Source of the DNA: Octopus vulgaris
Taxonomy: Eukaryota
Assembly: GCA_951406725.2 (NCBI GenBank)
Contig: OX597827.1
Span: forward strand, 38,068,001 to 38,132,000
Direction of reading: 5' to 3'
Length of the DNA stretch: 64,000 nt
In this document: in pieces, positions 8,101 to 64,000 of the stretch
Numbering within the stretch: the stretch's first letter is position 1
How the letters are laid out: every line of letters begins with the position of its first letter
The notes under the pieces: model-generated
Databases searched by the model: none
What the model was told of the DNA's origin: nothing
The model's input: the letters and a program-made list of their open reading frames with translations, nothing else
Position numbers and translations under genes: made by a program

Positions 8101-8761
8101 TCCTTAGGGAGCGAAAATAATACGCGTCTGCTTCAATGAAAGGCTTTCTGCTGTCTGCTGACTGCTATGTGTCCCTCTGGACGCTCAGTTGGTCAACGTT
8201 TTACGCTCCTTTGCCTCTTTGTTAAGGTTCGCCTTCCCCTGCAATTCAACTAATGCCACGACAGCAAATCTGTTCTCCCGGTCATCGCGCATGCGCGAGA
8301 GGGTCTTCCCTTTCGCCTTCGCGTATGCGCGAGAGAGCGTTTCGCGCTCGCACCGTTGTATTGATCACTACAAATCTATTTACCACGCTCTGTATTTAGA
8401 CACACACACATTTTCCGTTTTGTTGCTAGGAAACCATTAACTGTTGCAGATAGTGTTCTATTTTTATAAGACATCAGTGCTAGTTGCTGGCCTCTTAAGA
8501 CGCCCGACCGCTATTTTAAATACACTCAAGCCTGCTTGCTGCTTAGATAATTTTATCGTCATGTCTGACTATCCTGTGAAAAAAGGACGTGAACCCGGGG
8601 TACATGAGACACGGTGAGACAATATTATTATTAATAATTATTTGCACATATAATTTGCCATTAATAGCCGACGAGAATGTATCGTGGCTCTCCACTCCGA
8701 TATTCGAAACTTTGAGTACTATAATGACAACCTTTTACTGTTTGTTCTAAATTATAATATA

Positions 8762-31676: not shown

Positions 31677-32856
31677 TGTATAAAAATAGGATCACATGTG
31701 GTCGTATCGTGTAAGAGACACGGTCGCACGTGGTCATATTCTTAATGAGATATTACAGACCATATAATACATACAGCGGCAATAGAACACAAGTGGAATG
31801 ACAACAAGATTTTTTTTTGTGATATATACATTATTTATTTTACATATTTTACAATCATGTTGGTTGGAAGTTTGTAAGTGTTAGCATGTTTTTGTGTCTG
31901 TGTGTTCGTGAGGCATAAAAGGTACTGACCAGAGAAATAACAATGGAATTTGGTTCACAGTTCATGTTGTTGGTATCAGCCTAGCAACCGGTAGTAGCAG
32001 ATGGCTTAAGGTAGTTCTTAGAAGAACTAGAACTCAAGACAGATAATTGATTTACTGTTTATGAGGTACACGGAGTGTAAGAGTTCCATATCAAGATGTT
32101 GCGTCTCGTAGTTGAGATTAGTTGAATCACTTGTCGTGTTTATCCTTCTCTTGATATGGATTTCCTTTCAGATATATTAACTGTAGCTGTTTTTCCCGTG
32201 GTGATATTTTCACACTAACAGTATGAGAGGAATCTGTAACATCTTGTGTACAAGCTAAATCTTCGTGGATAGTTATGCTTGGTGATCGCCTGCCTTTCGA
32301 ACGGGAACATAGTTGGTATGCTCTGTGTGGTCAGAGGTCCGCCCTGAAAAGGACTGTAACCTAAGACGAGCTCTGTGGTCAGAGGTTAGTCCTGAGAAGG
32401 ACTAGAACCAAAGACGAACTCTGTGGTCAGAGGTTTAGCTCTGAAAAGAACTAAAAACCTAAGACGAGCGCTGTGGTCAGAGGTTCGCCCTGAGAAGGAC
32501 TTGAACCAAAGATGAACTTTGTGTGGTCAGAGGTTCGCCCTGAGAAGGACTTGAACCAAAGACGGATATTTGCCTGAGAACCCTTCTTTATATAAGGTTT
32601 ATGTGGCTCAAAACGAACTTCAGAAATGGAAAGCTGTGATTGGCTGCTTGGAACAATGGCGCGAAAATAAGCGGAGGCAAATCACGTCACGTGACAACCA
32701 GCGGTGCGAACGTAGTAGAGACCACGTGTCAGCCAATCGAATTAGTGTTTACAACAATGTTAAACTAGCCGAAGATGTTTGTAATCTCAAACGAGATTAT
32801 TCTTAATACTCTTCTCAAACAGTGAAGATAGCAATGAGTGTAACGATATTGCTACA
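31677..32856 (-). mobile_element. Probable solo LTR (~1.18 kb)
   Basis: Bounded by TGTA...TACA. On the minus strand the order is E-box, TTTTCGCGCC, CCAAT, TATATAAAG, 48-bp repeats, AATAAA. No clean TSD was seen. Confidence 0.5.
32321..32566. repeat. ~48-bp tandem repeat x5
   Basis: CTCTGTGGTCAGAGGTTCGCCCTGAGAAGGACTTGAACCAAAGACGAA and variants. Confidence 0.92.
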
Positions 32857-32981
32857 AGTTCATTTATCACTTCCAGTCACCTCATTACTTTTAAATCCTG
32901 CCCAATTCACTACCACTCCAATCTTTGTTTTAAACAATAATTGAAATTAAACATTTACAGAAGATATTTCTTCTATTTCAG

Positions 32982-33082
32982 GACTGAATGTCAAGAACAG
33001 ATAGATGATTTCGATGGTGCCAAGTATAAGAATTTCAGTACAGAAGAGGAAGCTCCGGCTTTTTCAGAAATTCCAGCATCAG
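32982..33082 (+). CDS. RNASEH1: RNase H1-like gene exon: second half of the hybrid-binding domain
   Basis: tttcag|G...AG|gtgaat. Translates (W)TECQEQIDDFDGAKYKNFSTEEEAPAF, compared with human [28 protein letters not shown]. The phase-2 intron would split the Trp codon. Orthologue versus paralogue is unresolved. Confidence 0.85.
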
Positions 33083-33149
33083 GTGAATAGAATTTTAGTG
33101 TTGTTTGGTATCATCATAATCATCATCACCATTGTCAAGATCAGAATAG

Positions 33150-33300
33150 ATTGGTATAATCAGTAGAGTGTTGACTGAATATCTTGTTGTATTTAGCTCA
33201 GTTTTTTATGTTCTGAGTTCAAATCCTAGTTAGGTCAAAATAACTTTCATCCTTCTGGGGCTCAATAATGGTCCAGTACTGAGATTGATATAGTCAGCTG
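33150..33300 (+). mobile_element. Degraded tRNA-derived SINE
   Basis: GTTCTGAGTTCAAATCC...CTTTCATCCTTCTGGGG. Confidence 0.65.
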
Positions 33301-33347
33301 TTCTCTCATTGTGACTTTGTGTCTGTATCAAAAAATAATTATTGTGC

Positions 33348-33490
33348 AGGTTTGATTGTGTTGTTAAGAAGCTTGCTTTGCAATCATATGATTTCAGGTT
33401 CAGTCCTACAATGCTTGCATTTTGGGCAAGTGTCTTATACTATAGTCCAGGCTGACCAATACCTTGTGAGTGAATTTGGTAAACAGAACA
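33348..33490 (+). mobile_element. tRNA-derived CORE-like SINE
   Basis: AAGAAGCTTGCTT...GGTTCAGTCC...TTGGGCAAGTGTCTTATACTATAG...CCTTGTGAGTGAATTTGGTA. Confidence 0.75.
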
Positions 33491-33499
33491 TGGACGATG

Positions 33500-33791
33500 C
33501 CTGGCTTCCATGCAAAATCTATTCAACCAATTGAGAAAAAACTCATGTCCGGAGTGAACGAATTCTCTCTTCTCTGTCAGACACTGGTGTCAATGCTGGC
33601 TGATTTGGATGACTCAGAAGAAAGCAAAGAATTTTCAACATTAGCATGTAATGTTGAAAATGATTTGGCTAAGTTGACAACAAGTGTTAAACTGGCAATT
33701 GATTCTAAGCTTTTGACAGGAACTACTTCATCTGAAGATGCATCAGAATCTCCTGAAAAGAAAAAGAGTGTTCAAAAAGGAGGTTTTACTG
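33500..33791 (+). CDS. Probable linker exon of the RNase H1-like gene (5' boundary uncertain)
   Basis: Open, protein-like frame (IEKKLMSGVNEFSLLCQTLVSMLADL...SESPEKKKSVQKGGFT). It ends G|gtaatg in phase 1, matching the next exon. No phase-1 acceptor was found. Confidence 0.6.
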
Positions 33792-33939
33792 GTAATGTAT
33801 CATGTTTTCATTCTCCTTTTAAGAGATTGTTAATATTTTATTATTATTTTTTTTAAATGAAAACTTGCAGCTTATTTTGCTTGGTATGATAAAAAGTGTC
33901 AGCTTCTCCTAGCCAGCAGGCTAAAGTGACACTTGTTTA

Positions 33940-34860
33940 CTGATCATGGTTCAAGAACCCTGTGGAGAACTCTTGCAGTTCCAAGCAATGCTGATTTTTA
34001 CAGGTGTTCTATTTTTACATTTGTACCAATCTTCTTGAGCTGTATTGGTATTTGATAACTGCTGATTCTTCCACCTGCACCAATCACTATTTGTATCATG
34101 TCCACTCTCTCCATTGCCCATAACCTGTGTATTTCCCACTTCAATTCATCATAGTTGTTCACTTTTTCTTTTTCTTTCTCTTCGATCCTGTTATCACCAG
34201 ACATGCTTGTCAATTATCAGGCATATTTTATTTTATTTTCTGTTCACCACAACAATGTTAGGTTTCCATTGTCTAATCTGATGATCACACTGAATCATTG
34301 TATTTCACAGGGTTTTGCAATCTTCATTCGCAGTAATTCCCTCTGAAATTTGGTCATACCATGTCTGATCTTTCTAGGCCATAATTTCCACAAATCTCCA
34401 ATGGATCATTCTTGCCTCATTGTCTTGTCGTCTTTGTATTTACAATGTGCTGATTTTGGTTATTCACTAACAATGCACACTGTTTCACTCCTCTCACCAT
34501 TCATTTGGCATTTGTCACTCTTAGTTGTGTTATCAATTTTGCACTTTAAATAGTTTGTCCTCAATGCTTGTTCTTGTGCTGTGCATATAAGTGCTTCTGT
34601 GTCTGTCTTGGAGCTCATATCTCTTGCAAACTGACTGTACTTTTTTTTGTGTTCTTTTCTTCTTTAGATTTCTCTTTCTTAACACAATTATCAATTTTGA
34701 TGATTTTGGACTTCTTCACATGTATCAGCAATGGTTCGGTGGCATTTTTTACATATCATCCTAAGCTGCTTTTCTCTGCTTCAACACAATCCCAACAACT
34801 GATCAATTCCCCCCACCCTTTCTTCTATAAGTATCACTCTTGGAATAAATTGTTCCATGA
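33940..34860 (-). mobile_element. Decayed R4/Dong-like (RLE) LINE 3' fragment
   Basis: Fragments TEALICTAQEQALRTNY, a degenerate CCHC region, GDNRIEEKEKEK..YDELKWE..RLW and IVIGA.G. Confidence 0.75.
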
Positions 34861-35104
34861 TCTGTCAATAGCTTCCATGACTTCATATTCATACTCATCA
34901 GTGTCAATAGTTTCTGTGTCTTTGAATCCATACTCATCATCATCATCATTATTATTGCAATCCCTACCAAGATCTACTTTGCCATTCACCTCTCCATGGT
35001 TAATAAAATAATGTACTTGTCAGTTACAAGGATTGATTTAATTGACTGATCTCTTCCTGCAAACTTCAGGTTTTGTGCCGATATTAGAAACAATTATTAT
35101 TATT

Positions 35105-35312
35105 GGGGATTGGTAGAATCAGTAGAGCATCAAGAAAATTTCTCACAAGTGTTTGCTCTGGCTCTTTATGTCCTGAGTTCAAATTCTGCCAATGCCAACT
35201 TTGTCTTTCATCCTTTCAGAGTTGACCTTGAACTCACCAATCAAGTAAGTTTAAGGTCAATGGTTTTGACTAACCTGCTCCCCTCAAAAATGTTGGCCTT
35301 GTACCAAAATTA
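35105..35312 (+). mobile_element. Degraded tRNA-derived SINE
   Basis: TGGTAGAATC...GAGTTCAAATTCTGCC...TTTGTCTTTCATCCTTTC. Confidence 0.7.
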
Positions 35313-35853
35313 AAATCATTGGTATAGTCTCTCACCAACACTTCTCAGCCTCTGGGTCACAAACATGTTATTCCCTCACTCTGCCTTTTCTACCACTGAT
35401 ACTGTGGTTTCTGCTCTTTGGAGCTGGCTGGTCTCAAGCTAACTTCTCTCATCTCTATCTTACTCTCCTCTGCAATATTCTGTCTAACTACTATGCCCAA
35501 GCCTACTTCACCAGGACATCAGTCTTTTGAAATCTACTTGCTACTCTTCTTTTCCTGAAGTTGTATATAAACATAAACCACATTGATCTCATTGGTTTTG
35601 GAAGATTTGTCAGATATTCGTAGAGCCCTTCCTCACAGTAAAATTGATAAAAAAGAAACAGCTTAACAATTACATTCACTCATTTGTCTCACCCTAAATA
35701 TTCTCCCTAGAGATTACACTCTCCATAATTTCTAGCCAGTTCATAGATGATTTATATAAAGAGCCAGGCAACAATATATTTTATATAATTTCTATAAAGA
35801 GCCAAGCTGCAATATATTTTTATATATAATTTATGCAAATTTTTTATTTACAG

Positions 35854-35968
35854 GTGAAAAATTTGCTGATGTTGATGTAGTTGCTGTTTTCATTGCTGGC
35901 AGCTGTCTCAAGAATGGTAAAGATGATGCCAGAGCTGGACTTGGTGTCTACTGGGGAGACGGAGAAAT
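35854..35968 (+). CDS. RNASEH1: RNase H1-like gene exon: start of the RNase H domain, catalytic Asp replaced by Ala
   Basis: tttacag|GT...AT|gtaagt. Translates GEKFADVDVVAVFIAGSCLKNGKDDARAGLGVYWGDGE, compared with human [29 protein letters not shown]. Confidence 0.88.
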
Positions 35969-37357: not shown

Positions 37358-38476
37358 TCATCATCATCATCATCGTTTAACGTCCGCTTTCCGCGCTATC
37401 ACGGGTTGGACGGTTTGACCGGGTCTGGGAAGCCAGGGGCCGCACCAGGCTCCAGTCTGAATCTGGCAGAGTTTCTACGGCTGGATGCCCTTCCTAACGC
37501 CAACCACTCCGTGAGTGGATTGGGTGCTTTTTACGTGCCACCTGCACAGGGGCCGGAGGGTCCGGCATCGTCACGATCGGTTCGAGCATTTTAACGTGTC
37601 AGCGGCACGGGGGCAACGAGGTCCGGGGTACTTTGGGGATCGGGGTACTTTGGGGATCCAGGGTACTTTGGGGATCCGGGGTACATAGAATGGGTAGGGG
37701 GTATGTGGAATTGCTGCAGAAAGCAGCCCGGGTCTTTGTAGTCACAGCATTTATCGTCACTGAGTAACGTAATTAGGTAGAGGAAAGAAATACAGATATT
37801 CTAGAGTTGAGTTGGGGGGGGTCCAGTTGAGGCGGGTAATATAGGAGAGCAACCAGTGGGGAAGGTTGGGGTAAGGAGGAACGATGGCAGGAAGGGTTGG
37901 TGTAGGTTCCTAAGAAATAAAGACATTCGTTATCGTCACTGAGTAACGTTATTAGGTAGAGGAAAGAAATACAGATATTCTAGAGTTGAGTTGGGGAGGG
38001 GGGGTCCAGTTGAGGCGGGTAATATAGGGGAGCAACCAGTGGGGAAGGTTGGGGTAAGGAGGAACGATGGCAGGAAGGGTTGGTGTAGGATCCTAAGAAA
38101 TAAAAACGTAGGATATTACGAGGCGGGAGGGTGCTAAAGGGGATGGTCGGAATGAGGCAGTGTCAGGAGGAAGCGTAAGATCGGTGGGCAGTTGATGAGC
38201 TATGGCGCTAGCAGCTTGTCTTTTCACAGTGAAAGCATATGAGGAGAAGGGGTAGTGGGGGGAGGATGAGGAAGTAGGGCGTACCCGGTGTAGATGAGTA
38301 AGGCGTATCCGGTGTAGATGGTGAGAACAGGGTATACTGGTATTGGTGGTGGGGGGTGAGAACAGTGTTCACCGGTATTGGTGGTGGTGGCGGTGAGAAC
38401 AGTGTTCACCGGTATTGGTGGTGGGGGTGAGAACAGTGTTCATCGGTATTGGTGGTGGGGGTGGGGGGGCGGGCGC
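37358..38476 (-). mobile_element. Non-coding retroposon with RTE-type 3' tail and stacked internal tandem repeats
   Basis: Starts with (CAT)n-CGTTTAACGTCCGCTTTCC. It contains 18-bp repeats GGGGTACTTTGGGGATCC (37625-37685), a ~180-bp duplication (37751 and 37930), and 21-bp and ~30-bp G-rich repeats (38275-38460). Confidence 0.7.
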
Positions 38477-41400
38477 ACCGCCAATGGCTGAAAGATGGGA
38501 AGAGATGGGATTACGGCTTGAGGTAGCCTAAGGTTAAATTTTGTAGAGAGATAGGAAAGATAAATCAAGTTATAGCGAAGGCTTGAAAGTAGCCTAAAAG
38601 GTTAAATTTTCGTAACAATGTATGAATAAACGTAGTAACAACGAATAAAAATAGTAAGATAAATTTTTAAGAACTTGCTGCGGACATCGATCGGGAGTTG
38701 AAATTGAAGAAGAAAGTAAGTTGAATTGGGAATTTAAATTGTAGAATCGTAATGGTAATGGCGATTTTCAAGTTTTAGCATAAGAAGAAGAAGAGGAGGA
38801 AAAAGACCGCCAATGGCTGAAAGATGGGAAGAGATGGGATTACGGCTTGAGGTAGCCTAAGGTTAAATTTTGTAGAGAGAGAGATAGGAAAGATAAATCA
38901 AGTTATGGCGAAGGCTTGAAAGTAGCCTAAAAGGTTAAATTTTCGTAACAATGTATGAATAAACGTAGTAACAACGAATAAAAATAGTAAGATAAATTTT
39001 TAAGAACTTGCTGCGGACATCGATCGGGAGTTGAAATTGAAGAAGAAAGTAAGTTGAATTGGGAATTTAAATTGTAGAATCGTAATGGTAATGGCGATTT
39101 TCAAGTTTTAGCATAAGAAGAAGAAGAGGAGGAAAAAAGACCGCCAATGGCTGAAAGATGGGAAGAGATGGGGGGGATTACGGCTTGAGGTAGCCTAAGG
39201 TTAAATTTTGTAGAGAGAGAGATAGGAAAGATAAATCAAGTTATGGCGAAGGCTTGAAAGTAGCCTAAAAGGTTAAATTTTCGTAACAATGTATGAATAA
39301 ACGTAGTAACAACGAATAAAAATAGTAAGATAAATTTTTAAGAACTTGCTGCGGACATCGATCGGGAGTTGAAATTGAAGAAGAAAGTAAGTTGAATTGG
39401 GAATTTAAATTGTAGAATCGTAATGGTAATGGCGATTTTCAAGTTTTAGCATAAGAAGAAGAAGAGGAGGAAAAAGACCGCCAATGGCTGAAAGATGGGA
39501 AGAGATGGGATTACGGCTTGAGGTAGCCTAAGGTTAAATTTTGTAGAGAGAGAGATAGGAAAGATAAATCAAGTTATGGCGAAGGCTTGAAAGTAGCCTA
39601 AAAGGTTAAATTTTCGTAACAATGTATGAATAAACGTAGTAACAACGAATAAAAATAGTAAGATAAATTTTTAAGAACTTGCTGCGGACATCGATCGGGA
39701 GTTGAAATTGAAGAAGAAAGTAAGTTGAATTGGGAATTTAAATTGTAGAATCGTAATGGTAATGGCGATTTTCAAGTTTTAGCATAAGAAGAAGAAGAGG
39801 AGGAAAAAGACCGCCAATGGCTGAAAGATGGGAAGAGATGGGATTACGGCTTGAGGTAGCCTAAGGTTAAATTTTGTAGAGAGAGAGATAGGAAAGATAA
39901 ATCAAGTTATGGCGAAGGCTTGAAAGTAGCCTAAAAGGTTAAATTTTCGTAACAATGTATGAATAAACGTAGTAACAACGAATAAAAATAGTAAGATAAA
40001 TTTTTAAGAACTTGCTGCGGACATCGATCGGGAGTTGAAATTGAAGAAGAAAGTAAGTTGAATTGGGAATTTAAATTGTAGAATCGTAATGGTAATGGCG
40101 ATTTTCAAGTTTTAGCATAAGAAGAAGAAGAGGAGGAAAAAGACCGCCAATGGCTGAAAGATGGGAAGAGATGGGATTACGGCTTGAGGTAGCCTAAGGT
40201 TAAATTTTGTAGAGAGAGAGATAGGAAAGATAAATCAAGTTATGGCGAAGGCTTGAAAGTAGCCTAAAAGGTTAAATTTTCGTAACAATGTATGAATAAA
40301 CGTAGTAACAACGAATAAAAATAGTAAGATAAATTTTTAAGAACTTGCTGCGGACATCGATCGGGAGTTGAAATTGAAGAAGAAAGTAAGTTGAATTGGG
40401 AATTTAAATTGTAGAATCGTAATGGTAATGGCGATTTTCAAGTTTTAGCATAAGAAGAAGAAGAGGAGGAAAAGACCGCCAATGGCTGAAAGATGGGAAG
40501 AGATGGGATTACGGCTTGAGGTAGCCTAAGGTTAAATTTTGTAGAGAGAGAGATAGGAAAGATAAATCAAGTTATGGCGAAGGCTTGAAAGTAGCCTAAA
40601 AGGTTAAATTTTCGTAACAATGTATGAATAAACGTAGTAACAACGAATAAAAATAGTAAGATAAATTTTTAAGAACTTGCTGCGGACATCGATCGGGAGT
40701 TGAAATTGAAGAAGAAAGTAAGTTGAATTGGGAATTTAAATTGTAGAATCGTAATGGTAATGGCGATTTTCAAGTTTTAGCATAAGAAGAAGAAGAGGAG
40801 GAAAAAGACCGCCAATGGCTGAAAGATGGGAAGAGATGGGATTACGGCTTGAGGTAGCCTAAGGTTAAATTTTGTAGAGAGAGAGATAGGAAAGATAAAT
40901 CAAGTTATGGCGAAGGCTTGAAAGTAGCCTAAAAGGTTAAATTTTCGTAACAATGTATGAATAAACGTAGTAACAACGAATAAAAATAGTAAGATAAATT
41001 TTTAAGAACTTGCTGCGGACATCGATCGGGAGTTGAAATTGAAGAAGAAAGTAAGTTGAATTGGGAATTTAAATTGTAGAATCGTAATGGTAATGGCGAT
41101 TTTCAAGTTTTAGCATAAGAAGAAGAAGAGGAGGAAAAAGACCGCCAATGGCTGAAAGATGGGAAGAGATGGGATTACGGCTTGAGGTAGCCTAAGGTTA
41201 AATTTTGTAGAGAGAGAGATAGGAAAGATAAATCAAGTTATGGCGAAGGCTTGAAAGTAGCCTAAAAGGTTAAATTTTCGTAACAATGTATGAATAAACG
41301 TAGTAACAACGAATAAAAATAGTAAGATAAATTTTTAAGAACTTGCTGCGGACATCGATCGGGAGTTGAAATTGAAGAAGAAAGTAAGTTGAATTGGGAA

Positions 41401-44400
41401 TTTAAATTGTAGAATCGTAATGGTAATGGCGATTTTCAAGTTTTAGCATAAGAAGAAGAAGAGGAGGAAAAAGACCGCCAATGGCTGAAAGATGGGAAGA
41501 GATGGGATTACGGCTTGAGGTAGCCTAAGGTTAAATTTTGTAGAGAGAGAGATAGGAAAGATAAATCAAGTTATGGCGAAGGCTTGAAAGTAGCCTAAAA
41601 GGTTAAATTTTCGTAACAATGTATGAATAAACGTAGTAACAACGAATAAAAATAGTAAGATAAATTTTTAAGAACTTGCTGCGGACATCGATCGGGAGTT
41701 GAAATTGAAGAAGAAAGTAAGTTGAATTGGGAATTTAAATTGTAGAATCGTAATGGTAATGGCGATTTTCAAGTTTTAGCATAAGAAGAAGAAGAGGAGG
41801 AAAAAGACCGCCAATGGCTGAAAGATGGGAAGAGATGGGATTACGGCTTGAGGTAGCCTAAGGTTAAATTTTGTAGAGAGAGAGATAGGAAAGATAAATC
41901 AAGTTATGGCGAAGGCTTGAAAGTAGCCTAAAAGGTTAAATTTTCGTAACAATGTATGAATAAACGTAGTAACAACGAATAAAAATAGTAAGATAAATTT
42001 TTAAGAACTTGCTGCGGACATCGATCGGGAGTTGAAATTGAAGAAGAAAGTAAGTTGAATTGGGAATTTAAATTGTAGAATCGTAATGGTAATGGCGATT
42101 TTCAAGTTTTAGCATAAGAAGAAGAAGAGGAGGAAAAAGACCGCCAATGGCTGAAAGATGGGAAGAGATGGGATTACGGCTTGAGGTAGCCTAAGGTTAA
42201 ATTTTGTAGAGAGAGAGATAGGAAAGATAAATCAAGTTATGGCGAAGGCTTGAAAGTAGCCTAAAAGGTTAAATTTTCGTAACAATGTATGAATAAACGT
42301 AGTAACAACGAATAAAAATAGTAAGATAAATTTTTAAGAACTTGCTGCGGACATCGATCGGGAGTTGAAATTGAAGAAGAAAGTAAGTTGAATTGGGAAT
42401 TTAAATTGTAGAATCGTAATGGTAATGGCGATTTTCAAGTTTTAGCATAAGAAGAAGAAGAGGAGGAAAAAGACCGCCAATGGCTGAAAGATGGGAAGAG
42501 ATGGGATTACGGCTTGAGGTAGCCTAAGGTTAAATTTTGTAGAGAGAGAGATAGGAAAGATAAATCAAGTTATGGCGAAGGCTTGAAAGTAGCCTAAAAG
42601 GTTAAATTTTCGTAACAATGTATGAATAAACGTAGTAACAACGAATAAAAATAGTAAGATAAATTTTTAAGAACTTGCTGCGGACATCGATCGGGAGTTG
42701 AAATTGAAGAAGAAAGTAAGTTGAATTGGGAATTTAAATTGTAGAATCGTAATGGTAATGGCGATTTTCAAGTTTTAGCATAAGAAGAAGAAGAGGAGGA
42801 AAAAGACCGCCAATGGCTGAAAGATGGGAAGAGATGGGATTACGGCTTGAGGTAGCCTAAGGTTAAATTTTGTAGAGAGAGAGATAGGAAAGATAAATCA
42901 AGTTATGGCGAAGGCTTGAAAGTAGCCTAAAAGGTTAAATTTTCGTAACAATGTATGAATAAACGTAGTAACAACGAATAAAAATAGTAAGATAAATTTT
43001 TAAGAACTTGCTGCGGACATCGATCGGGAGTTGAAATTGAAGAAGAAAGTAAGTTGAATTGGGAATTTAAATTGTAGAATCGTAATGGTAATGGCGATTT
43101 TCAAGTTTTAGCATAAGAAGAAGAAGAGGAGGAAAAAGACCGCCAATGGCTGAAAGATGGGAAGAGATGGGATTACGGCTTGAGGTAGCCTAAGGTTAAA
43201 TTTTGTAGAGAGAGAGATAGGAAAGATAAATCAAGTTATGGCGAAGGCTTGAAAGTAGCCTAAAAGGTTAAATTTTCGTAACAATGTATGAATAAACGTA
43301 GTAACAACGAATAAAAATAGTAAGATAAATTTTTAAGAACTTGCTGCGGACATCGATCGGGAGTTGAAATTGAAGAAGAAAGTAAGTTGAATTGGGAATT
43401 TAAATTGTAGAATCGTAATGGTAATGGCGATTTTCAAGTTTTAGCATAAGAAGAAGAAGAGGAGGAAAAAGACCGCCAATGGCTGAAAGATGGGAAGAGA
43501 TGGGATTACGGCTTGAGGTAGCCTAAGGTTAAATTTTGTAGAGAGAGAGATAGGAAAGATAAATCAAGTTATGGCGAAGGCTTGAAAGTAGCCTAAAAGG
43601 TTAAATTTTCGTAACAATGTATGAATAAACGTAGTAACAACGAATAAAAATAGTAAGATAAATTTTTAAGAACTTGCTGCGGACATCGATCGGGAGTTGA
43701 AATTGAAGAAGAAAGTAAGTTGAATTGGGAATTTAAATTGTAGAATCGTAATGGTAATGGCGATTTTCAAGTTTTAGCATAAGAAGAAGAAGAGGAGGAA
43801 AAAGACCGCCAATGGCTGAAAGATGGGAAGAGATGGGATTACGGCTTGAGGTAGCCTAAGGTTAAATTTTGTAGAGAGAGAGATAGGAAAGATAAATCAA
43901 GTTATGGCGAAGGCTTGAAAGTAGCCTAAAAGGTTAAATTTTCGTAACAATGTATGAATAAACGTAGTAACAACGAATAAAAATAGTAAGATAAATTTTT
44001 AAGAACTTGCTGCGGACATCGATCGGGAGTTGAAATTGAAGAAGAAAGTAAGTTGAATTGGGAATTTAAATTGTAGAATCGTAATGGTAATGGCGATTTT
44101 CAAGTTTTAGCATAAGAAGAAGAAGAGGAGGAAAAAGACCGCCAATGGCTGAAAGATGGGAAGAGATGGGATTACGGCTTGAGGTAGCCTAAGGTTAAAT
44201 TTTGTAGAGAGAGAGATAGGAAAGATAAATCAAGTTATGGCGAAGGCTTGAAAGTAGCCTAAAAGGTTAAATTTTCGTAACAATGTATGAATAAACGTAG
44301 TAACAACGAATAAAAATAGTAAGATAAATTTTTAAGAACTTGCTGCGGACATCGATCGGGAGTTGAAATTGAAGAAGAAAGTAAGTTGAATTGGGAATTT

Positions 44401-47400
44401 AAATTGTAGAATCGTAATGGTAATGGCGATTTTCAAGTTTTAGCATAAGAAGAAGAAGAGGAGGAAAAAGACCGCCAATGGCTGAAAGATGGGAAGAGAT
44501 GGGATTACGGCTTGAGGTAGCCTAAGGTTAAATTTTGTAGAGAGAGAGATAGGAAAGATAAATCAAGTTATGGCGAAGGCTTGAAAGTAGCCTAAAAGGT
44601 TAAATTTTCGTAACAATGTATGAATAAACGTAGTAACAACGAATAAAAATAGTAAGATAAATTTTTAAGAACTTGCTGCGGACATCGATCGGGAGTTGAA
44701 ATTGAAGAAGAAAGTAAGTTGAATTGGGAATTTAAATTGTAGAATCGTAATGGTAATGGCGATTTTCAAGTTTTAGCATAAGAAGAAGAAGAGGAGGAAA
44801 AAGACCGCCAATGGCTGAAAGATGGGAAGAGATGGGATTACGGCTTGAGGTAGCCTAAGGTTAAATTTTGTAGAGAGAGAGATAGGAAAGATAAATCAAG
44901 TTATGGCGAAGGCTTGAAAGTAGCCTAAAAGGTTAAATTTTCGTAACAATGTATGAATAAACGTAGTAACAACGAATAAAAATAGTAAGATAAATTTTTA
45001 AGAACTTGCTGCGGACATCGATCGGGAGTTGAAATTGAAGAAGAAAGTAAGTTGAATTGGGAATTTAAATTGTAGAATCGTAATGGTAATGGCGATTTTC
45101 AAGTTTTAGCATAAGAAGAAGAAGAGGAGGAAAAAGACCGCCAATGGCTGAAAGATGGGAAGAGATGGGATTACGGCTTGAGGTAGCCTAAGGTTAAATT
45201 TTGTAGAGAGAGAGATAGGAAAGATAAATCAAGTTATGGCGAAGGCTTGAAAGTAGCCTAAAAGGTTAAATTTTCGTAACAATGTATGAATAAACGTAGT
45301 AACAACGAATAAAAATAGTAAGATAAATTTTTAAGAACTTGCTGCGGACATCGATCGGGAGTTGAAATTGAAGAAGAAAGTAAGTTGAATTGGGAATTTA
45401 AATTGTAGAATCGTAATGGTAATGGCGATTTTCAAGTTTTAGCATAAGAAGAAGAAGAGGAGGAAAAAGACCGCCAATGGCTGAAAGATGGGAAGAGATG
45501 GGATTACGGCTTGAGGTAGCCTAAGGTTAAATTTTGTAGAGAGAGAGATAGGAAAGATAAATCAAGTTATGGCGAAGGCTTGAAAGTAGCCTAAAAGGTT
45601 AAATTTTCGTAACAATGTATGAATAAACGTAGTAACAACGAATAAAAATAGTAAGATAAATTTTTAAGAACTTGCTGCGGACATCGATCGGGAGTTGAAA
45701 TTGAAGAAGAAAGTAAGTTGAATTGGGAATTTAAATTGTAGAATCGTAATGGTAATGGCGATTTTCAAGTTTTAGCATAAGAAGAAGAAGAGGAGGAAAA
45801 AGACCGCCAATGGCTGAAAGATGGGAAGAGATGGGATTACGGCTTGAGGTAGCCTAAGGTTAAATTTTGTAGAGAGAGAGATAGGAAAGATAAATCAAGT
45901 TATGGCGAAGGCTTGAAAGTAGCCTAAAAGGTTAAATTTTCGTAACAATGTATGAATAAACGTAGTAACAACGAATAAAAATAGTAAGATAAATTTTTAA
46001 GAACTTGCTGCGGACATCGATCGGGAGTTGAAATTGAAGAAGAAAGTAAGTTGAATTGGGAATTTAAATTGTAGAATCGTAATGGTAATGGCGATTTTCA
46101 AGTTTTAGCATAAGAAGAAGAAGAGGAGGAAAAAGACCGCCAATGGCTGAAAGATGGGAAGAGATGGGATTACGGCTTGAGGTAGCCTAAGGTTAAATTT
46201 TGTAGAGAGAGAGATAGGAAAGATAAATCAAGTTATGGCGAAGGCTTGAAAGTAGCCTAAAAGGTTAAATTTTCGTAACAATGTATGAATAAACGTAGTA
46301 ACAACGAATAAAAATAGTAAGATAAATTTTTAAGAACTTGCTGCGGACATCGATCGGGAGTTGAAATTGAAGAAGAAAGTAAGTTGAATTGGGAATTTAA
46401 ATTGTAGAATCGTAATGGTAATGGCGATTTTCAAGTTTTAGCATAAGAAGAAGAAGAGGAGGAAAAAGACCGCCAATGGCTGAAAGATGGGAAGAGATGG
46501 GATTACGGCTTGAGGTAGCCTAAGGTTAAATTTTGTAGAGAGAGAGATAGGAAAGATAAATCAAGTTATGGCGAAGGCTTGAAAGTAGCCTAAAAGGTTA
46601 AATTTTCGTAACAATGTATGAATAAACGTAGTAACAACGAATAAAAATAGTAAGATAAATTTTTAAGAACTTGCTGCGGACATCGATCGGGAGTTGAAAT
46701 TGAAGAAGAAAGTAAGTTGAATTGGGAATTTAAATTGTAGAATCGTAATGGTAATGGCGATTTTCAAGTTTTAGCATAAGAAGAAGAAGAGGAGGAAAAA
46801 GACCGCCAATGGCTGAAAGATGGGAAGAGATGGGATTACGGCTTGAGGTAGCCTAAGGTTAAATTTTGTAGAGAGAGAGATAGGAAAGATAAATCAAGTT
46901 ATGGCGAAGGCTTGAAAGTAGCCTAAAAGGTTAAATTTTCGTAACAATGTATGAATAAACGTAGTAACAACGAATAAAAATAGTAAGATAAATTTTTAAG
47001 AACTTGCTGCGGACATCGATCGGGAGTTGAAATTGAAGAAGAAAGTAAGTTGAATTGGGAATTTAAATTGTAGAATCGTAATGGTAATGGCGATTTTCAA
47101 GTTTTAGCATAAGAAGAAGAAGAGGAGGAAAAAGACCGCCAATGGCTGAAAGATGGGAAGAGATGGGATTACGGCTTGAGGTAGCCTAAGGTTAAATTTT
47201 GTAGAGAGAGAGATAGGAAAGATAAATCAAGTTATGGCGAAGGCTTGAAAGTAGCCTAAAAGGTTAAATTTTCGTAACAATGTATGAATAAACGTAGTAA
47301 CAACGAATAAAAATAGTAAGATAAATTTTTAAGAACTTGCTGCGGACATCGATCGGGAGTTGAAATTGAAGAAGAAAAGTAAGTTGAATTGGGAATTTAA

Positions 47401-50400
47401 ATTGTAGAATCGTAATGGTAATGGCGATTTTCAAGTTTTAGCATAAGAAGAAGAAGAGGAGGAAAAAGACCGCCAATGGCTGAAAGATGGGAAGAGATGG
47501 GATTACGGCTTGAGGTAGCCTAAGGTTAAATTTTGTAGAGAGAGAGATAGGAAAGATAAATCAAGTTATGGCGAAGGCTTGAAAGTAGCCTAAAAGGTTA
47601 AATTTTCGTAACAATGTATGAATAAACGTAGTAACAACGAATAAAAATAGTAAGATAAATTTTTAAGAACTTGCTGCGGACATCGATCGGGAGTTGAAAT
47701 TGAAGAAGAAAGTAAGTTGAATTGGGAATTTAAATTGTAGAATCGTAATGGTAATGGCGATTTTCAAGTTTTAGCATAAGAAGAAGAAGAGGAGGAAAAA
47801 GACCGCCAATGGCTGAAAGATGGGAAGAGATGGGATTACGGCTTGAGGTAGCCTAAGGTTAAATTTTGTAGAGAGAGAGATAGGAAAGATAAATCAAGTT
47901 ATGGCGAAGGCTTGAAAGTAGCCTAAAAGGTTAAATTTTCGTAACAATGTATGAATAAACGTAGTAACAACGAATAAAAATAGTAAGATAAATTTTTAAG
48001 AACTTGCTGCGGACATCGATCGGGAGTTGAAATTGAAGAAGAAAGTAAGTTGAATTGGGAATTTAAATTGTAGAATCGTAATGGTAATGGCGATTTTCAA
48101 GTTTTAGCATAAGAAGAAGAAGAGGAGGAAAAAGACCGCCAATGGCTGAAAGATGGGAAGAGATGGGATTACGGCTTGAGGTAGCCTAAGGTTAAATTTT
48201 GTAGAGAGAGAGATAGGAAAGATAAATCAAGTTATGGCGAAGGCTTGAAAGTAGCCTAAAAGGTTAAATTTTCGTAACAATGTATGAATAAACGTAGTAA
48301 CAACGAATAAAAATAGTAAGATAAATTTTTAAGAACTTGCTGCGGACATCGATCGGGAGTTGAAATTGAAGAAGAAAGTAAGTTGAATTGGGAATTTAAA
48401 TTGTAGAATCGTAATGGTAATGGCGATTTTCAAGTTTTAGCATAAGAAGAAGAAGAGGAGGAAAAAGACCGCCAATGGCTGAAAGATGGGAAGAGATGGG
48501 ATTACGGCTTGAGGTAGCCTAAGGTTAAATTTTGTAGAGAGAGAGATAGGAAAGATAAATCAAGTTATGGCGAAGGCTTGAAAGTAGCCTAAAAGGTTAA
48601 ATTTTCGTAACAATGTATGAATAAACGTAGTAACAACGAATAAAAATAGTAAGATAAATTTTTAAGAACTTGCTTGCGGACATCGATCGGGAGTTGAAAT
48701 TGAAGAAGAAAGTAAGATGAATTGGGAATTTAAATTGTAGAATCGTAATGGTAATGGCGATTTTCAAGTTTTAGCATAAGAAGAAGAAGAGGAGAAAAAG
48801 ACCGCCAATGGCTGAAAGATGGGAAGAGATGGGATTACGGCTTGAGGTAGCCTAAGGTTAAATTTTGTAGAGAGAGAGATAGGAAAGATAAATCAAGTTA
48901 TGGCGAAGGCTTGAAAGTAGCCTAAAAGGTTAAATTTTCGTAACAATGTATGAATAAACGTAGTAACAACGAATAAAAATAGTAAGATAAATTTTTAAGA
49001 ACTTGCTGCGGACATCGATCGGGAGTTGAAATTGAAGAAGAAAGTAAGTTGAATTGGGAATTTAAATTGTAGAATCGTAATGGTAATGGCGATTTTCAAG
49101 TTTTAGCATAAGAAGAAGAAGAGGAGGAAAAAGACCGCCAATGGCTGAAAGATGGGAAGAGATGGGATTACGGCTTGAGGTAGCCTAAGGTTAAATTTTG
49201 TAGAGAGAGAGATAGGAAAGATAAATCAAGTTATGGCGAAGGCTTGAAAGTAGCCTAAAAGGTTAAATTTTCGTAACAATGTATGAATAAACGTAGTAAC
49301 AACGAATAAAAATAGTAAGATAAATTTTTAAGAACTTGCTGCGGACATCGATCGGGAGTTGAAATTGAAGAAGAAAGTAAGTTGAATTGGGAATTTAAAT
49401 TGTAGAATCGTAATGGTAATGGCGATTTTCAAGTTTTAGCATAAGAAGAAGAAGAGGAGGAAAAAGACCGCCAATGGCTGAAAGATGGGAAGAGATGGGA
49501 TTACGGCTTGAGGTAGCCTAAGGTTAAATTTTGTAGAGAGAGAGATAGGAAAGATAAATCAAGTTATGGCGAAGGCTTGAAAGTAGCCTAAAAGGTTAAA
49601 TTTTCGTAACAATGTATGAATAAACGTAGTAACAACGAATAAAAATAGTAAGATAAATTTTTAAGAACTTGCTGCGGACATCGATCGGGAGTTGAAATTG
49701 AAGAAGAAAGTAAGTTGAATTGGGAATTTAAATTGTAGAATCGTAATGGTAATGGCGATTTTCAAGTTTTAGCATAAGAAGAAGAAGAGGAGGAAAAAGA
49801 CCGCCAATGGCTGAAAGATGGGAAGAGATGGGATTACGGCTTGAGGTAGCCTAAGGTTAAATTTTGTAGAGAGAGAGATAGGAAAGATAAATCAAGTTAT
49901 GGCGAAGGCTTGAAAGTAGCCTAAAAGGTTAAATTTTCGTAACAATGTATGAATAAACGTAGTAACAACGAATAAAAATAGTAAGATAAATTTTTAAGAA
50001 CTTGCTGCGGACATCGATCGGGAGTTGAAATTGAAGAAGAAAGTAAGTTGAATTGGGAATTTAAATTGTAGAATCGTAATGGTAATGGCGATTTTCAAGT
50101 TTTAGCATAAGAAGAAGAAGAGGAGGAAAAAGACCGCCAATGGCTGAAAGATGGGAAGAGATGGGATTACGGCTTGAGGTAGCCTAAGGTTAAATTTTGT
50201 AGAGAGAGAGATAGGAAAGATAAATCAAGTTATGGCGAAGGCTTGAAAGTAGCCTAAAAGGTTAAATTTTCGTAACAATGTATGAATAAACGTAGTAACA
50301 ACGAATAAAAATAGTAAGATAAATTTTTAAGAACTTGCTGCGGACATCGATCGGGAGTTGAAATTGAAGAAGAAAGTAAGTTGAATTGGGAATTTAAATT

Positions 50401-53400
50401 GTAGAATCGTAATGGTAATGGCGATTTTCAAGTTTTAGCATAAGAAGAAGAAGAGGAGGAAAAAGACCGCCAATGGCTGAAAGATGGGAAGAGATGGGAT
50501 TACGGCTTGAGGTAGCCTAAGGTTAAATTTTGTAGAGAGAGAGATAGGAAAGATAAATCAAGTTATGGCGAAGGCTTGAAAGTAGCCTAAAAGGTTAAAT
50601 TTTCGTAACAATGTATGAATAAACGTAGTAACAACGAATAAAAATAGTAAGATAAATTTTTAAGAACTTGCTGCGGACATCGATCGGGAGTTGAAATTGA
50701 AGAAGAAAGTAAGTTGAATTGGGAATTTAAATTGTAGAATCGTAATGGTAATGGCGATTTTCAAGTTTTAGCATAAGAAGAAGAAGAGGAGGAAAAAGAC
50801 CGCCAATGGCTGAAAGATGGGAAGAGATGGGATTACGGCTTGAGGTAGCCTAAGGTTAAATTTTGTAGAGAGAGAGATAGGAAAGATAAATCAAGTTATG
50901 GCGAAGGCTTGAAAGTAGCCTAAAAGGTTAAATTTTCGTAACAATGTATGAATAAACGTAGTAACAACGAATAAAAATAGTAAGATAAATTTTTAAGAAC
51001 TTGCTGCGGACATCGATCGGGAGTTGAAATTGAAGAAGAAAGTAAGTTGAATTGGGAATTTAAATTGTAGAATCGTAATGGTAATGGCGATTTTCAAGTT
51101 TTAGCATAAGAAGAAGAAGAGGAGGAAAAAGACCGCCAATGGCTGAAAGATGGGAAGAGATGGGATTACGGCTTGAGGTAGCCTAAGGTTAAATTTTGTA
51201 GAGAGAGAGATAGGAAAGATAAATCAAGTTATGGCGAAGGCTTGAAAGTAGCCTAAAAGGTTAAATTTTCGTAACAATGTATGAATAAACGTAGTAACAA
51301 CGAATAAAAATAGTAAGATAAATTTTTAAGAACTTGCTGCGGACATCGATCGGGAGTTGAAATTGAAGAAGAAAGTAAGTTGAATTGGGAATTTAAATTG
51401 TAGAATCGTAATGGTAATGGCGATTTTCAAGTTTTAGCATAAGAAGAAGAAGAGGAGGAAAAAGACCGCCAATGGCTGAAAGATGGGAAGAGATGGGATT
51501 ACGGCTTGAGGTAGCCTAAGGTTAAATTTTGTAGAGAGAGAGATAGGAAAGATAAATCAAGTTATGGCGAAGGCTTGAAAGTAGCCTAAAAGGTTAAATT
51601 TTCGTAACAATGTATGAATAAACGTAGTAACAACGAATAAAAATAGTAAGATAAATTTTTAAGAACTTGCTTGCGGACATCGATCGGGAGTTGAAATTGA
51701 AGAAGAAAGTAAGTTGAATTGGGAATTTAAATTGTAGAATCGTAATGGTAATGGCGATTTTCAAGTTTTAGCATAAGAAGAAGAAGAGGAGGAAAAAGAC
51801 CGCCAATGGCTGAAAGATGGGAAGAGATGGGATTACGGCTTGAGGTAGCCTAAGGTTAAATTTTGTAGAGAGAGAGATAGGAAAGATAAATCAAGTTATG
51901 GCGAAGGCTTGAAAGTAGCCTAAAAGGTTAAATTTTCGTAACAATGTATGAATAAACGTAGTAACAACGAATAAAAATAGTAAGATAAATTTTTAAGAAC
52001 TTGCTGCGGACATCGATCGGGAGTTGAAATTGAAGAAGAAAGTAAGTTGAATTGGGAATTTAAATTGTAGAATCGTAATGGTAATGGCGATTTTCAAGTT
52101 TTAGCATAAGAAGAAGAAGAGGAGGAAAAAGACCGCCAATGGCTGAAAGATGGGAAGAGATGGGATTACGGCTTGAGGTAGCCTAAGGTTAAATTTTGTA
52201 GAGAGAGAGATAGGAAAGATAAATCAAGTTATGGCGAAGGCTTGAAAGTAGCCTAAAAGGTTAAATTTTCGTAACAATGTATGAATAAACGTAGTAACAA
52301 CGAATAAAAATAGTAAGATAAATTTTTAAGAACTTGCTGCGGACATCGATCGGGAGTTGAAATTGAAGAAGAAAGTAAGTTGAATTGGGAATTTAAATTG
52401 TAGAATCGTAATGGTAATGGCGATTTTCAAGTTTTAGCATAAGAAGAAGAAGAGGAGGAAAAAGACCGCCAATGGCTGAAAGATGGGAAGAGATGGGATT
52501 ACGGCTTGAGGTAGCCTAAGGTTAAATTTTGTAGAGAGAGAGATAGGAAAGATAAATCAAGTTATGGCGAAGGCTTGAAAGTAGCCTAAAAGGTTAAATT
52601 TTCGTAACAATGTATGAATAAACGTAGTAACAACGAATAAAAATAGTAAGATAAATTTTTAAGAACTTGCTGCGGACATCGATCGGGAGTTGAAATTGAA
52701 GAAGAAAGTAAGTTGAATTGGGAATTTAAATTGTAGAATCGTAATGGTAATGGCGATTTTCAAGTTTTAGCATAAGAAGAAGAGGAGGAAAAAGACCGCC
52801 AATGGCTGAAAGATGGGAAGAGATGGGATTACGGCTTGAGGTAGCCTAAGGTTAAATTTTGTAGAGAGAGAGATAGGAAAGATAAATCAAGTTATGGCGA
52901 AGGCTTGAAAGTAGCCTAAAAGGTTAAATTTTCGTAACAATGTATGAATAAACGTAGTAACAACGAATAAAAATAGTAAGATAAATTTTTAAGAACTTGC
53001 TTGCGGACATCGATCGGGAGTTGAAATTGAAGAAGAAAGTAAGTTGAATTGGGAATTTAAATTGTAGAATCGTAATGGTAATGGCGATTTTCAAGTTTTA
53101 GCATAAGAAGAAGAAGAGGAGGAAAAAGACCGCCAATGGCTGAAAGATGGGAAGAGATGGGATTACGGCTTGAGGTAGCCTAAGGTTAAATTTTGTAGAG
53201 AGAGAGATAGGAAAGATAAATCAAGTTATGGCGAAGGCTTGAAAGTAGCCTAAAAGGTTAAATTTTCGTAACAATGTATGAATAAACGTAGTAACAACGA
53301 ATAAAAATAGTAAGATAAATTTTTAAGAACTTGCTGCGGACATCGATCGGGAGTTGAAATTGAAGAAGAAAGTAAGTTGAATTGGGAATTTAAATTGTAG

Positions 53401-62400: not shown

Positions 62401-64000
62401 ATTTTCAAGTTTTAACATAAGAAGAAGAAGAGGAGGAAAAAGACCGCCAATGGCTGAAAGATGGGAAGAGATGGGATTACGGCTTGAGGTAGCCTAAGGT
62501 TAAATTTTGTAGAGAGAGAGATAGGAAAGATAAATCAAGTTATGGCGAAGGCTTGAAAGTAGCCTAAAAGGTTAAATTTTCGTAACAATGTATGAATAAA
62601 CGTAGTAACAACGAATAAAAATAGTAAGATAAATTTTTAAGAACTTGCTGCGGACATCGATCGGGAGTTGAAATTGAAGAAGAAAGTAAGTTGAATTGGG
62701 AATTTAAATTGTAGAATCGTAATGGTAATGGCGATTTTCAAGTTTTAGCATAAGAAGAAGAAGAGGAGGAAAAAGACCGCCAATGGCTGAAAGATGGGAA
62801 GAGATGGGATTACGGCTTGAGGTAGCCTAAGGTTAAATTTTGTAGAGAGAGAGATAGGAAAGATAAATCAAGTTATGGCGAAGGCTTGAAAGTCGCCTAA
62901 AAGGTTAAATTTTCGTAACAATGTATGAATAAACGTAGTAACAACGAATAAAAATAGTAAGATAAATTTTTAAGAACTTGCTGCGGACATCGATCGGGAG
63001 TTGAAATTGAAGAAGAAAGTAAGTTGAATTGGGAATTTAAATTGTAGAATCGTAATGGTAATGGCGATTTTCAAGTTTTAGCATAAGAAGAAGAAGAGGA
63101 GGAAAAAGACCGCCAATGGCTGAAAGATGGGAAGAGATGGGATTACGGCTTGAGGTAGCCTGAGGTTAAATTTTGTAGAGAGAGAGATAGGAAAGATAAA
63201 TCAAGTTATGGCGAAGGCTTGAAAGTAGCCTAAAAGGTTAAATTTTCGTAACAATGTATGAATAAACGTAGTAACAACGAATAAAAATAGTAAGATAAAT
63301 TTTTAAGAACTTGCTGCGGACATCGATCGGGAGTTGAAATTGAAGAAGAAAGTAAGTTGAATTGGGAATTTAAATTGTAGAATCGTAATGGTAATGGCGA
63401 TTTTCAAGTTTTAGCATAAGAAGAAGAAGAGGAGGAAAAAGACTGCCAATGGCTGAAAGATGGGAAGAGATGGGATTACGGCTTGAGGTAGCCTAAGGTT
63501 AAATTTTGTAGAGAGAGAGATAGGAAAGATAAATCAAGTTATGGCGAAGGCTTGAAAGTAGCCTAAAAGGTTAAATTTTCGTAACAATGTATGAATAAAC
63601 GTAGTAACAACGAATAAAAATAGTAAGATAAATTTTTAAGAACTTGCTGCGGACATCGATCGGGAGTTGAAATTGAAGAAGAAAGTAAGTTGAATTGGGA
63701 ATTTAAATTGTAGAATCATAATGGTAATGGCGATTTTCAAGTTTTAGCATAAGAAGAAGAAGAGGAGGAAAAAGACCGCCAATGGCTGAAAGATGGGAAG
63801 AGATGGGATTACGGCTTGAGGTAGCCTAAGGTTAAATTTTGTAGAGAGAGAGATAGGAAAGATAAATCAAGTTATGGCGAAGGCTTGAAAGTAGCCTAAA
63901 AGGTTAAATTTTCGTAACAATGTATGAATAAACGTAGTAACAACGAATAAAAATAGTAAGATAAATTTTTAAGAACTTGCTGCGGACATCGATCGGGAGT
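38477..64000. repeat. 333-bp satellite array, ~76-77 near-identical copies, runs off the right edge
   Basis: ACCGCCAATGGCTGAAAGATGGG recurs at 38477, 38806, 39140, 39477, 39810, 40143 and onward, with a modal period of 333. Only occasional indels and substitutions are seen. No ORF of 60 aa or more. Confidence 0.99.

What the first reader, a model, noticed from the sequence alone, without database searches (positions are those of the whole stretch)
32982..35968. Spliced RNase H1-like gene with a substituted first catalytic Asp: candidate non-catalytic RNA:DNA hybrid reader
Seen: two short exons missed by the ORF track encode the hybrid-binding domain and the start of the RNase H fold, with canonical splice sites. 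The YTDG motif reads FIAG (GCT at 35895-35897), while NG...RAG.GVYWG is conserved. Known: this Asp (human D145, E. coli D10) binds both catalytic metals; its substitution abolishes cleavage while hybrid binding is generally retained. A-to-I editing cannot convert GCT back to GAT. Inference: this may be a natural dead RNase H1 paralogue that binds R-loops or retroelement RT intermediates, or else a decaying duplicate.
Basis: partly seen in the sequence, partly recalled or inferred. Interest (0 to 1): 0.8.

Follow-up and report, generated by a model that had tools for sequence, protein, structure and literature searches.

The report
Fast-evolving dead RNase H1 octopus copies
This octopus has one normal RNase H1 gene (the enzyme that cuts RNA paired to DNA) and two neighbouring copies that have lost the cutting residues yet change their protein sequence far faster than neutral decay allows, so they are likely working proteins, predicted to grip RNA:DNA hybrids without cutting them, possibly in a conflict with retroelements.

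Summary
Observation confirmed and extended. The exons belong to copy C of a tandem RNASEH1 triplication (A, B, C; about 75 kb apart). A has all four catalytic acids. B and C share Asp145→Ala and Asp210→Ser; C also has Asp274→Asn. Neither has a stop or frameshift. The RNase H domain is under strong positive selection: B versus C differ by 34 nonsynonymous and 0 synonymous changes (introns 0.4% apart); maximum-likelihood dN/dS is about 30 (p≈5e-8; counting gives about 6–9 against A), while the linker gives about 0.65. Octopus sinensis models carry further dead variants with other catalytic-site changes. Seven of nine named hybrid-contact residues are kept and the domain is more basic (+7 versus +2). 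C-type exon 1–2 splicing is seen; a spliced contig through C's Ala exon was not listed in this species. Best reading: positively selected pseudo-enzyme family, likely binding hybrids without cutting; the driver (retroelement conflict) is a guess. No paper found in nine searches.

The parts
709..8613 (+). Copy C exon 1, five of seven tandem repeats (unit about 1.94 kb; exon starts 709, 2650, 4588, 6532, 8468; two more lie upstream of the window). First ATG is AAG; second Met kept; encodes MSDYPVKKGREPGVHETR (F28D, A30P, W43R in human numbering); donor GT intact
31680..32856 (-). Solo-LTR-like repeat inserted in intron 1 of copy C only, degenerate 5-bp target duplication; absent from A and B
   Evidence: (465 candidates, 40 scored)
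32982..33082 (+). Copy C exon 2: second half of the hybrid-binding domain (K60N, F58Y, Leu→Pro in the last helix)
33511..33791 (+). Copy C exon 3 remnant (helical linker). A ~1.18-kb deletion removed the acceptor and the first ~20 coding bases; further in-frame 18-nt and 3-nt deletions; donor intact. Exon is symmetric, so skipping keeps the frame
35854..35968 (+). Copy C exon 4: first strands of the RNase H fold; GCT (Ala) at 35895-35897 in place of the first catalytic Asp
37366..38476 (.). Repeat-like insertion at an (AT)n tract in intron 4, absent from copy B, directly before the satellite
38477..64000 (.). 333-bp satellite, 78 units, 99% matches, ends 214 bases beyond the window; lies inside intron 4 (28.8 kb). 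Exons 5-8 of copy C follow at window-extended 64798-64852, 65072-65156, 66776-66900, 69131-69214

Best explanation
This is one of two tandem duplicates of octopus RNASEH1 that lack catalytic acids, keep open frames and show dN/dS far above 1 in the RNase H domain; they are likely working pseudo-enzymes, predicted to bind RNA:DNA hybrids without cutting them, and the fast change is likely driven by a genetic conflict, perhaps with retroelements. Shown: triplication, loss of 2 (B) or 3 (C) of 4 catalytic acids, open frames, excess of amino-acid change confined to the two nucleic-acid-binding domains, dead variants in a second species, a C-type exon 1-2 splice. From established knowledge: loss of Asp145 or Asp210 abolishes cleavage while leaving binding. 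Inferred: the dead domain folds and binds a hybrid (contact residues kept, more basic surface) and so caps it or competes with the active enzyme or a reverse transcriptase's RNase H. B would do this with both domains and in both nucleus and mitochondria; C, without a working N-terminal domain or the mitochondrial start, would be a shorter nuclear/cytosolic variant with changed specificity. The opponent is not identified.
For: Three copies found, all on one contig. Catalytic set D-E-D-D in A, A-E-S-D in B, A-E-S-N in C. One stop (the terminal one) in each of the 3 joined frames; 4 of 4 exonic indels are multiples of 3. RNase H domain counts: A-B 46 N/2 S, A-C 55.5/2.5, B-C 34/0 (Fisher p 0.004, 0.002, 0.0003 at kappa 1); ML omega 26-33, p 5e-8 to 8e-8 against omega=1; B and C tips alone p 1e-5 to 2e-5; linker omega 0.63-0.69, not different from 1. 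Without multi-change codons: 29/0, 39/0, 22/0. Exons 4-8 B-C 35 of 461 bases differ, introns 3-7 27 of 7065. At 23 of 24 sites where B=C differ from A, A equals O. bimaculoides or Argonauta. 11 of the 14 changed near-invariant positions lie at or beside catalytic residues. N151, R179, N182, F213, W221, W225, S233 kept (7 of 9 named in PMC6846478); net charge +7 against +2. Model of C's domain: pLDDT about 90-98, rmsd 1.2 A to human 2QK9. O. sinensis models show FIAG/FIYG, E→V, D→S or N. D145N and D210N bind but do not cut, and can act dominant-negatively (PMC6027298, passages); dRNH1 binds L1 RT-made hybrids (PMC10830420, passages).
Against: No binding or protein data. C-specific damage: W43R, K60N, F28D, A30P and a helix proline in the N-terminal domain; His264→Cys; WVHV→WDRA in a core strand; Gly→Arg at a 99%-conserved site; exon-3 acceptor deleted; 25.7-kb satellite in intron 4. 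No listed spliced contig carries the GCT exon in the two runs of organism A; the only listed one with GCT there is unspliced and B-like (tables cut: 205 joints and 11403 pieces not shown). Q183 position changed to Ile. Changed positions are not significantly less conserved than unchanged ones (p 0.08). The fold model leans on an alignment of active enzymes. Only three DNA sequences, mosaic by gene conversion, so omega is imprecise (about 6 to 30). O. sinensis dead variants gain less charge in some models (+2 to +7). Nothing here points to retroelements rather than another opponent.
Confidence: 0.5

Rival explanations
1. The family was positively selected and B is the working member, but copy C itself has recently started to decay (or survives only as a donor of exon variants through gene conversion and read-through splicing).
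For: C-only lesions: first ATG lost, exon-3 acceptor deleted, binding residues of the N-terminal domain lost, solo LTR, satellite and sevenfold exon 1. No spliced GCT exon-4 contig listed for organism A. Public models mix exons of neighbouring copies.
Against: C's own branch carries 33 N to 1 S in the two binding domains; no stop; exon-3 skipping is in frame; C-type exon 1 is spliced to exon 2 in X1 and C-type exon-4 letters occur in runs of organisms B and D.
Confidence: 0.22
2. B and C are decoys or protein partners: they keep the RNase H1 shape to absorb an inhibitor from a virus, parasite or selfish element, or to act on the active enzyme, and nucleic-acid binding is incidental.
For: Diversifying selection with 59 of 147 columns variable among six dead variants; loss of the N-terminal binding residues in C is itself nonsynonymous-rich (13 N/1 S); linker comparatively constant.
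Against: Hybrid-contact residues of the catalytic domain are kept and positive charge rises, which a pure decoy does not need. No inhibitor is known to me.
Confidence: 0.15
3. Selection acted only to switch off surplus RNase H1 after duplication (first catalysis, then binding, to escape dosage and dominant-negative harm); the copies have no positive role.
For: Changes hit catalytic residues repeatedly and, in C, binding residues; over-expressed dead enzyme can be dominant-negative (PMC6027298).
Against: One stop, frameshift or promoter loss would do; instead 65 nonsynonymous base changes in the domain with no stop, and most continue after Asp145 was already lost.
Confidence: 0.08
4. Ordinary neutrally decaying unprocessed pseudogenes.
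For: Young tandem duplicates with repeat insertions; conserved residues are hit.
Against: omega=1 rejected at p about 5e-8; exons 4-8 are 4- to 6-fold (odds) more diverged from A than introns; chance of no stop after 66-115 random changes 0.07-0.01; all 12 substitution types occur, no editing-like spectrum.
Confidence: 0.04

Closest known systems
Eukaryotic RNase H1 (RNASEH1; Pfam PF01693 + PF00075; human structure 2QK9)
   Same: Direct paralogue: same eight-exon layout and splice phases as intact copy A, same domain order, predicted fold rmsd 1.2 A, most substrate contacts kept.
   Different: Catalytic set A-E-S-N; N-terminal binding residues and mitochondrial start lost in C; omega far above 1, whereas A differs from O. 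bimaculoides at only 12 of 155 residues.
Engineered dead RNase H1 (D145N, D210N) used in DRIVE-seq, R-ChIP and imaging (PMC6027298, PMC10830420, PMC12489091; passages read)
   Same: Same residues lost; these mutants bind hybrids without cutting and can be dominant-negative.
   Different: Natural, multi-copy, several catalytic residues lost, surface rapidly changing; binding not shown here.
Positively selected, duplicated host factors in genetic conflicts (for example APOBEC3, TRIM5; recalled, no call)
   Same: Tandem duplication, mosaic gene conversion, omega>1 concentrated in the substrate-facing domains.
   Different: No opponent identified; derived from a housekeeping nuclease that has lost its activity.
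Duplicated metabolic enzymes that lost catalysis, e.g. Drosophila sperm leucyl aminopeptidases (PMC3078892, search listing only)
   Same: Pattern of a conserved parent enzyme with diverged, catalytically altered duplicates.
   Different: Different enzyme class; tissue of expression of the octopus copies is unknown.
RNase H-fold domains without the classical acids (Prp8, Maelstrom; recalled, no call)
   Same: RNase H fold used without the DEDD set.
   Different: Those are ancient domains in other proteins, not young copies of RNASEH1.

Membership tests
RNase H1 (active enzyme) | Hybrid-binding domain + linker + RNase H domain, homologous to RNASEH1 | tested here: met
RNase H1 (active enzyme) | Four catalytic acids D145, E186, D210, D274 | tested here: not met
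   C: Ala, Glu, Ser, Asn; B: Ala, Glu, Ser, Asp; A: all four. Numbering carried over from a whale sequence (offset 1) and 2QK9; E186 and D274 labels recalled
RNase H1 (active enzyme) | W43, K59, K60 in the N-terminal domain | tested here: not met
   C: Arg, Lys, Asn; kept in A and B (PMC6846478)
RNase H1 (active enzyme) | Upstream ATG giving the longer, mitochondrial form (role recalled) | tested here: not met
   AAG in 7 of 7 exon-1 repeats of C; ATG in A and B
Unprocessed pseudogene | Stops or frameshifts | tested here: not met
   None in B or C; exon-3 acceptor of C deleted but skipping is in frame
Unprocessed pseudogene | dN/dS near 1 | tested here: not met
   omega 3.2-3.5 whole gene, 26-33 RNase H domain
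Unprocessed pseudogene | No spliced transcript | tested here: inconclusive
   C-type exon 1-2 joint in X1; no listed spliced contig through exon 4 in organism A; exon-confined GCT contigs in X12
Pseudo-enzyme hybrid binder (works like dRNH1) | Fold and substrate-contact residues kept | tested here: met
   7 of 9 named residues identical to human; pLDDT 88; rmsd 1.2 A; the model leans on active homologues
Pseudo-enzyme hybrid binder (works like dRNH1) | Protein made, binds hybrid, does not cut | not testable with these tools
   Needs proteomics and assays
Arms-race restriction factor | Positive selection and copy-number change across species | tested here: met
Arms-race restriction factor | Identified antagonist and restriction phenotype | not testable with these tools
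   None found

The most novel reading that the evidence does not exclude
Octopuses of the vulgaris group have turned the housekeeping nuclease RNase H1 into a new, fast-diversifying family of natural 'dead RNase H1' restriction factors that clamp the RNA:DNA intermediates of reverse transcription and block their processing, in an ongoing arms race with retroelements or viruses, with intron-homogenising gene conversion shuffling selected exons between copies.
Probability: 0.25. Interest if true: 0.9.

Novelty: new variant of a known kind. Interest (0 to 1): 0.74.

Why it matters
RNase H1 is normally a conserved single housekeeping gene, and its dead form is known mainly as a laboratory probe. 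A natural, duplicated, catalytically dead family with dN/dS far above 1 in the substrate-facing domains points to an unrecognised conflict or regulatory role at RNA:DNA hybrids in an animal with a repeat-rich genome. It is directly testable (three small soluble proteins, A as control), and the natural variants are ready-made candidates for R-loop probes with altered specificity. Public annotations hide it: all copies are named 'ribonuclease H1(-like)' and some models fuse exons of different copies.

Tried and rejected
One search translated exon 2 in the wrong frame; the right frame is. The Fisher test printed used wrong totals; the corrected one is. RNA editing or edited-cDNA conversion as the source of the changes: rejected, the change is genomic and all 12 substitution types occur (A>G 15, G>A 26 of 111). 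Assembly artefact: rejected, dead exon types recur in other runs and in O. sinensis models. The intron-1 LTR-like repeat as a new sense promoter for C: no support; its TG end points to the minus strand and exon 1 is spliced across it; the sigma-70 scan does not apply to an animal. Complex prediction of A linker with C linker: no answer, score 0.28 under the mark 0.34, alignments not used; not evidence either way. One search listed no holder on record as RNA; three of the four laid runs hold spliced contigs. Search for short dead fragments: 1 hit among 6 candidates, an active-type exon 7 read-through. A further PF01693 match on contig C7 is not an RNase H1 copy; identity not worked out. Earlier-findings look-ups: nothing. 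Two attempts to open Nowotny 2008: not held. Literature; the listings of the six novelty searches and of 35 showed no paper on dead or positively selected RNASEH1 duplicates; only listings were seen, subscription papers and supplements of octopus genome papers were not searched.

Full report
Observation. The two exons are real: 32982-33082 and 35854-35968, both with AG and GT ends, and GCT at 35895-35897 in the motif FIAG. Named public proteins that match these exons are labelled Octopus vulgaris (P0006, P0011), so I take the window as that species.

Gene and context. Searches of the window's genome find three copies, all on contig C14, about 75-78 kb apart; a protein search gave 26 matches among 33 scored candidates, all in this cluster. 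Copy A (37.922-37.957 Mb) has eight exons and D-E-D-D with the active-site His. Copy B (37.991-38.035 Mb) has A-E-S-D. Copy C, the finding, has A-E-S-N and Cys for His. C's exon 1 is repeated seven times in a 1.94-kb unit with the first ATG changed to AAG in 7 of 7; a solo-LTR-like repeat sits in intron 1; a deletion of about 1.18 kb removes the acceptor of the linker exon; a 333-bp satellite of 78 units fills intron 4; exons 5-8 lie just beyond the window. The joined frames of A, B and C (C skipping exon 3: 205 residues from the second Met) each have only the terminal stop. All 4 exonic indels are multiples of three. The public model P0011 instead starts C at an ATG at the deletion junction; which form is made is not known.

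Selection. Codon counts in the RNase H domain: A-B 46 nonsynonymous to 2 synonymous, A-C 55.5 to 2.5, B-C 34 to 0 (one more synonymous change lies in the split Gly codon just before the domain); Fisher p 0.004, 0.002 and 0.0003 with no transition bias, smaller with it. Codon maximum likelihood gives omega 26 (IQ-TREE) and 30-33 (own script), p 5e-8 to 8e-8 against omega 1; whole gene 3.2-3.5; N-terminal domain about 5 (p 0.04-0.05); linker 0.63-0.69, not different from 1. Counting gives 6.5-8.6 against A, so the size is imprecise but the sign is not. Dropping codons with more than one change leaves 29:0, 39:0 and 22:0. By branch, in the RNase H domain: A versus B+C 31 N:3 S, B 10:0, C 20:0, three-state 4:0; C's N-terminal domain 13:1. 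At 23 of 24 sites where B and C agree against A, A matches O. bimaculoides or Argonauta, so most change is on the dead lineage. Aligned introns differ by 3.0% (A-B), 2.5% (A-C) and 0.43% (B-C), exons 4-8 by 10.6%, 12.7% and 7.6%. The low B-C intron figure may reflect gene conversion (the cluster is mosaic), so the intron comparison overstates the rate; the codon tests do not depend on it.

Other species. O. sinensis models on three contigs carry FIAG or FIYG, some with the second acid replaced by Val and the third by Ser or Asn, and the same two-residue deletion after the His loop. These models appear to mix exons of neighbouring copies, so I use them exon by exon; 59 of 147 columns vary among six dead variants. 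O. bimaculoides and Argonauta gave one intact protein each among the 120 listed of 425 hits; this is not proof that they lack dead copies.

Transcripts (4 of 24 listed runs laid, contigs only, tables cut). The dominant spliced contig in X1, X2 and X12 is copy A's; in X1 and X2 it carries GAT. In X1 a loose end at 32981 from 2 contigs has a C-type exon-1 consensus at agreement 0.95, which fits one A-type and one C-type contig, so C-type exon 1 is spliced to exon 2 (inferred from the consensus; the record is not listed). Contigs with the window's own letters at 33013 and 33018 are present in X1 and X2. At exon 4, X1 shows only A; X2 adds an unspliced B-like contig with GCT. X12 (organism B) shows only GCT-type contigs at 35896, one with C-type letters at 35856-35884, with no cover of the flanking intron bins. 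X20 (organism D) holds C-type letters at 35872-35884 and an A-type contig. A spliced transcript through C's exon 4 in this species is therefore not shown.

Structure. The model of P0011 has mean pLDDT 88 and matches human RNase H1 (2QK9) at rmsd 1.2 A; it was built on 42 mostly active homologues, so it shows compatibility, not folding. Of 55 positions at least 95% conserved among 109 homologues, 14 changed in B or C, and 11 of these are at or beside catalytic residues; 41 of the other 100 changed. Of nine hybrid-contact residues named in PMC6846478 (passage), seven are identical to human in A, B and C; Q183 is Asn in A and Ile in B and C, T232 is Lys or Arg. Net charge of the domain is +2 in A and +7 in B and C. 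In the N-terminal domain B keeps W43, K59 and K60; C has Arg, Lys, Asn, and W43A abolishes that domain's hybrid binding in human.

Mechanism. Shown: dead active site by sequence, open frames, positive selection in the nucleic-acid-binding domains, spread to a second species. Known: D145N and D210N bind hybrids without cutting and can act dominant-negatively (PMC6027298, passages; PMC12489091, passages); dead RNase H1 binds hybrids made by LINE-1 reverse transcriptase (PMC10830420, passages). Inferred: B and C are non-cutting hybrid binders that cap hybrids or compete with active RNase H. Guessed: the driver is a retroelement or virus. My odds: about 0.9 that the family has been positively selected as protein; about 0.5 for non-cutting hybrid binding as the working mode including C; 0.22 that C has since begun to decay while B works; 0.15 decoy; 0.08 selected switch-off; 0.04 neutral pseudogene.

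Comparison and novelty. It is a paralogue of RNase H1 but fails the membership test for the active enzyme and for a pseudogene; it works, by prediction, like engineered dRNH1. Search listings showed no report of such copies; PMC9719913 and PMC8960830 were read only as passages for general background. Subscription papers and supplements of octopus genome papers were not seen and could list the expansion. Verdict: new variant of a known kind, interest 0.74.

Noticed in passing
G000:C14:37990837-38035312 (L013-L017), upstream of the window: Copy B: dead active site (Ala, Glu, Ser, Asp) but both start codons, all splice sites and W43/K59/K60 intact; the best candidate for a true non-cutting hybrid reader.
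   Followed up: yes
P0002, P0001/P0004, P0126 (public models): Annotated 'ribonuclease H1' models join exons from different tandem copies (P0002 has A exons 1-5 and B-type exons 6-8). Either mis-annotation or real read-through splicing between copies.
   Followed up: partly
window 38477-64000 (ends at extended 64214): 333-bp satellite, 78 units at 99% match with strong purine skew, inside intron 4, preceded by a 1.1-kb repeat-like insertion; very young or an assembly expansion.
   Followed up: partly
window 1-9900 and about 4 kb upstream: Sevenfold tandem amplification (about 1.94 kb) of exon 1 with its upstream region, about 97% identical; may multiply the promoter of copy C.
   Followed up: partly
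window 31680-32856: Abundant solo-LTR-like repeat (465 candidates, 40 scored), TG at one end, 5-bp target duplications, internal 50-bp tandem repeat, CCAAT, E-box and TATA-like motifs.
   Followed up: partly
window 33512-33791: The cephalopod RNase H1 linker is predicted to be two long helices, longer than in mammals, and is not under positive selection here.
   Followed up: partly
L032 (G000:C7:30857922-30858017, minus strand): A separate Cauli_VI (PF01693)-like exon on another contig; possibly ANKLE2 (guess from recall and a search listing).
   Followed up: no
G000:C14:38042764-38049361 versus 37966894-37973483: Sequence downstream of B is 99.2% identical to that downstream of A while C's is 96%, showing recent conversion or unequal crossing-over within the cluster.
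   Followed up: no
window 19687-21216: 509-codon stop-to-stop open frame in intron 1 of copy C, probably from a mobile element; not examined.
   Followed up: no
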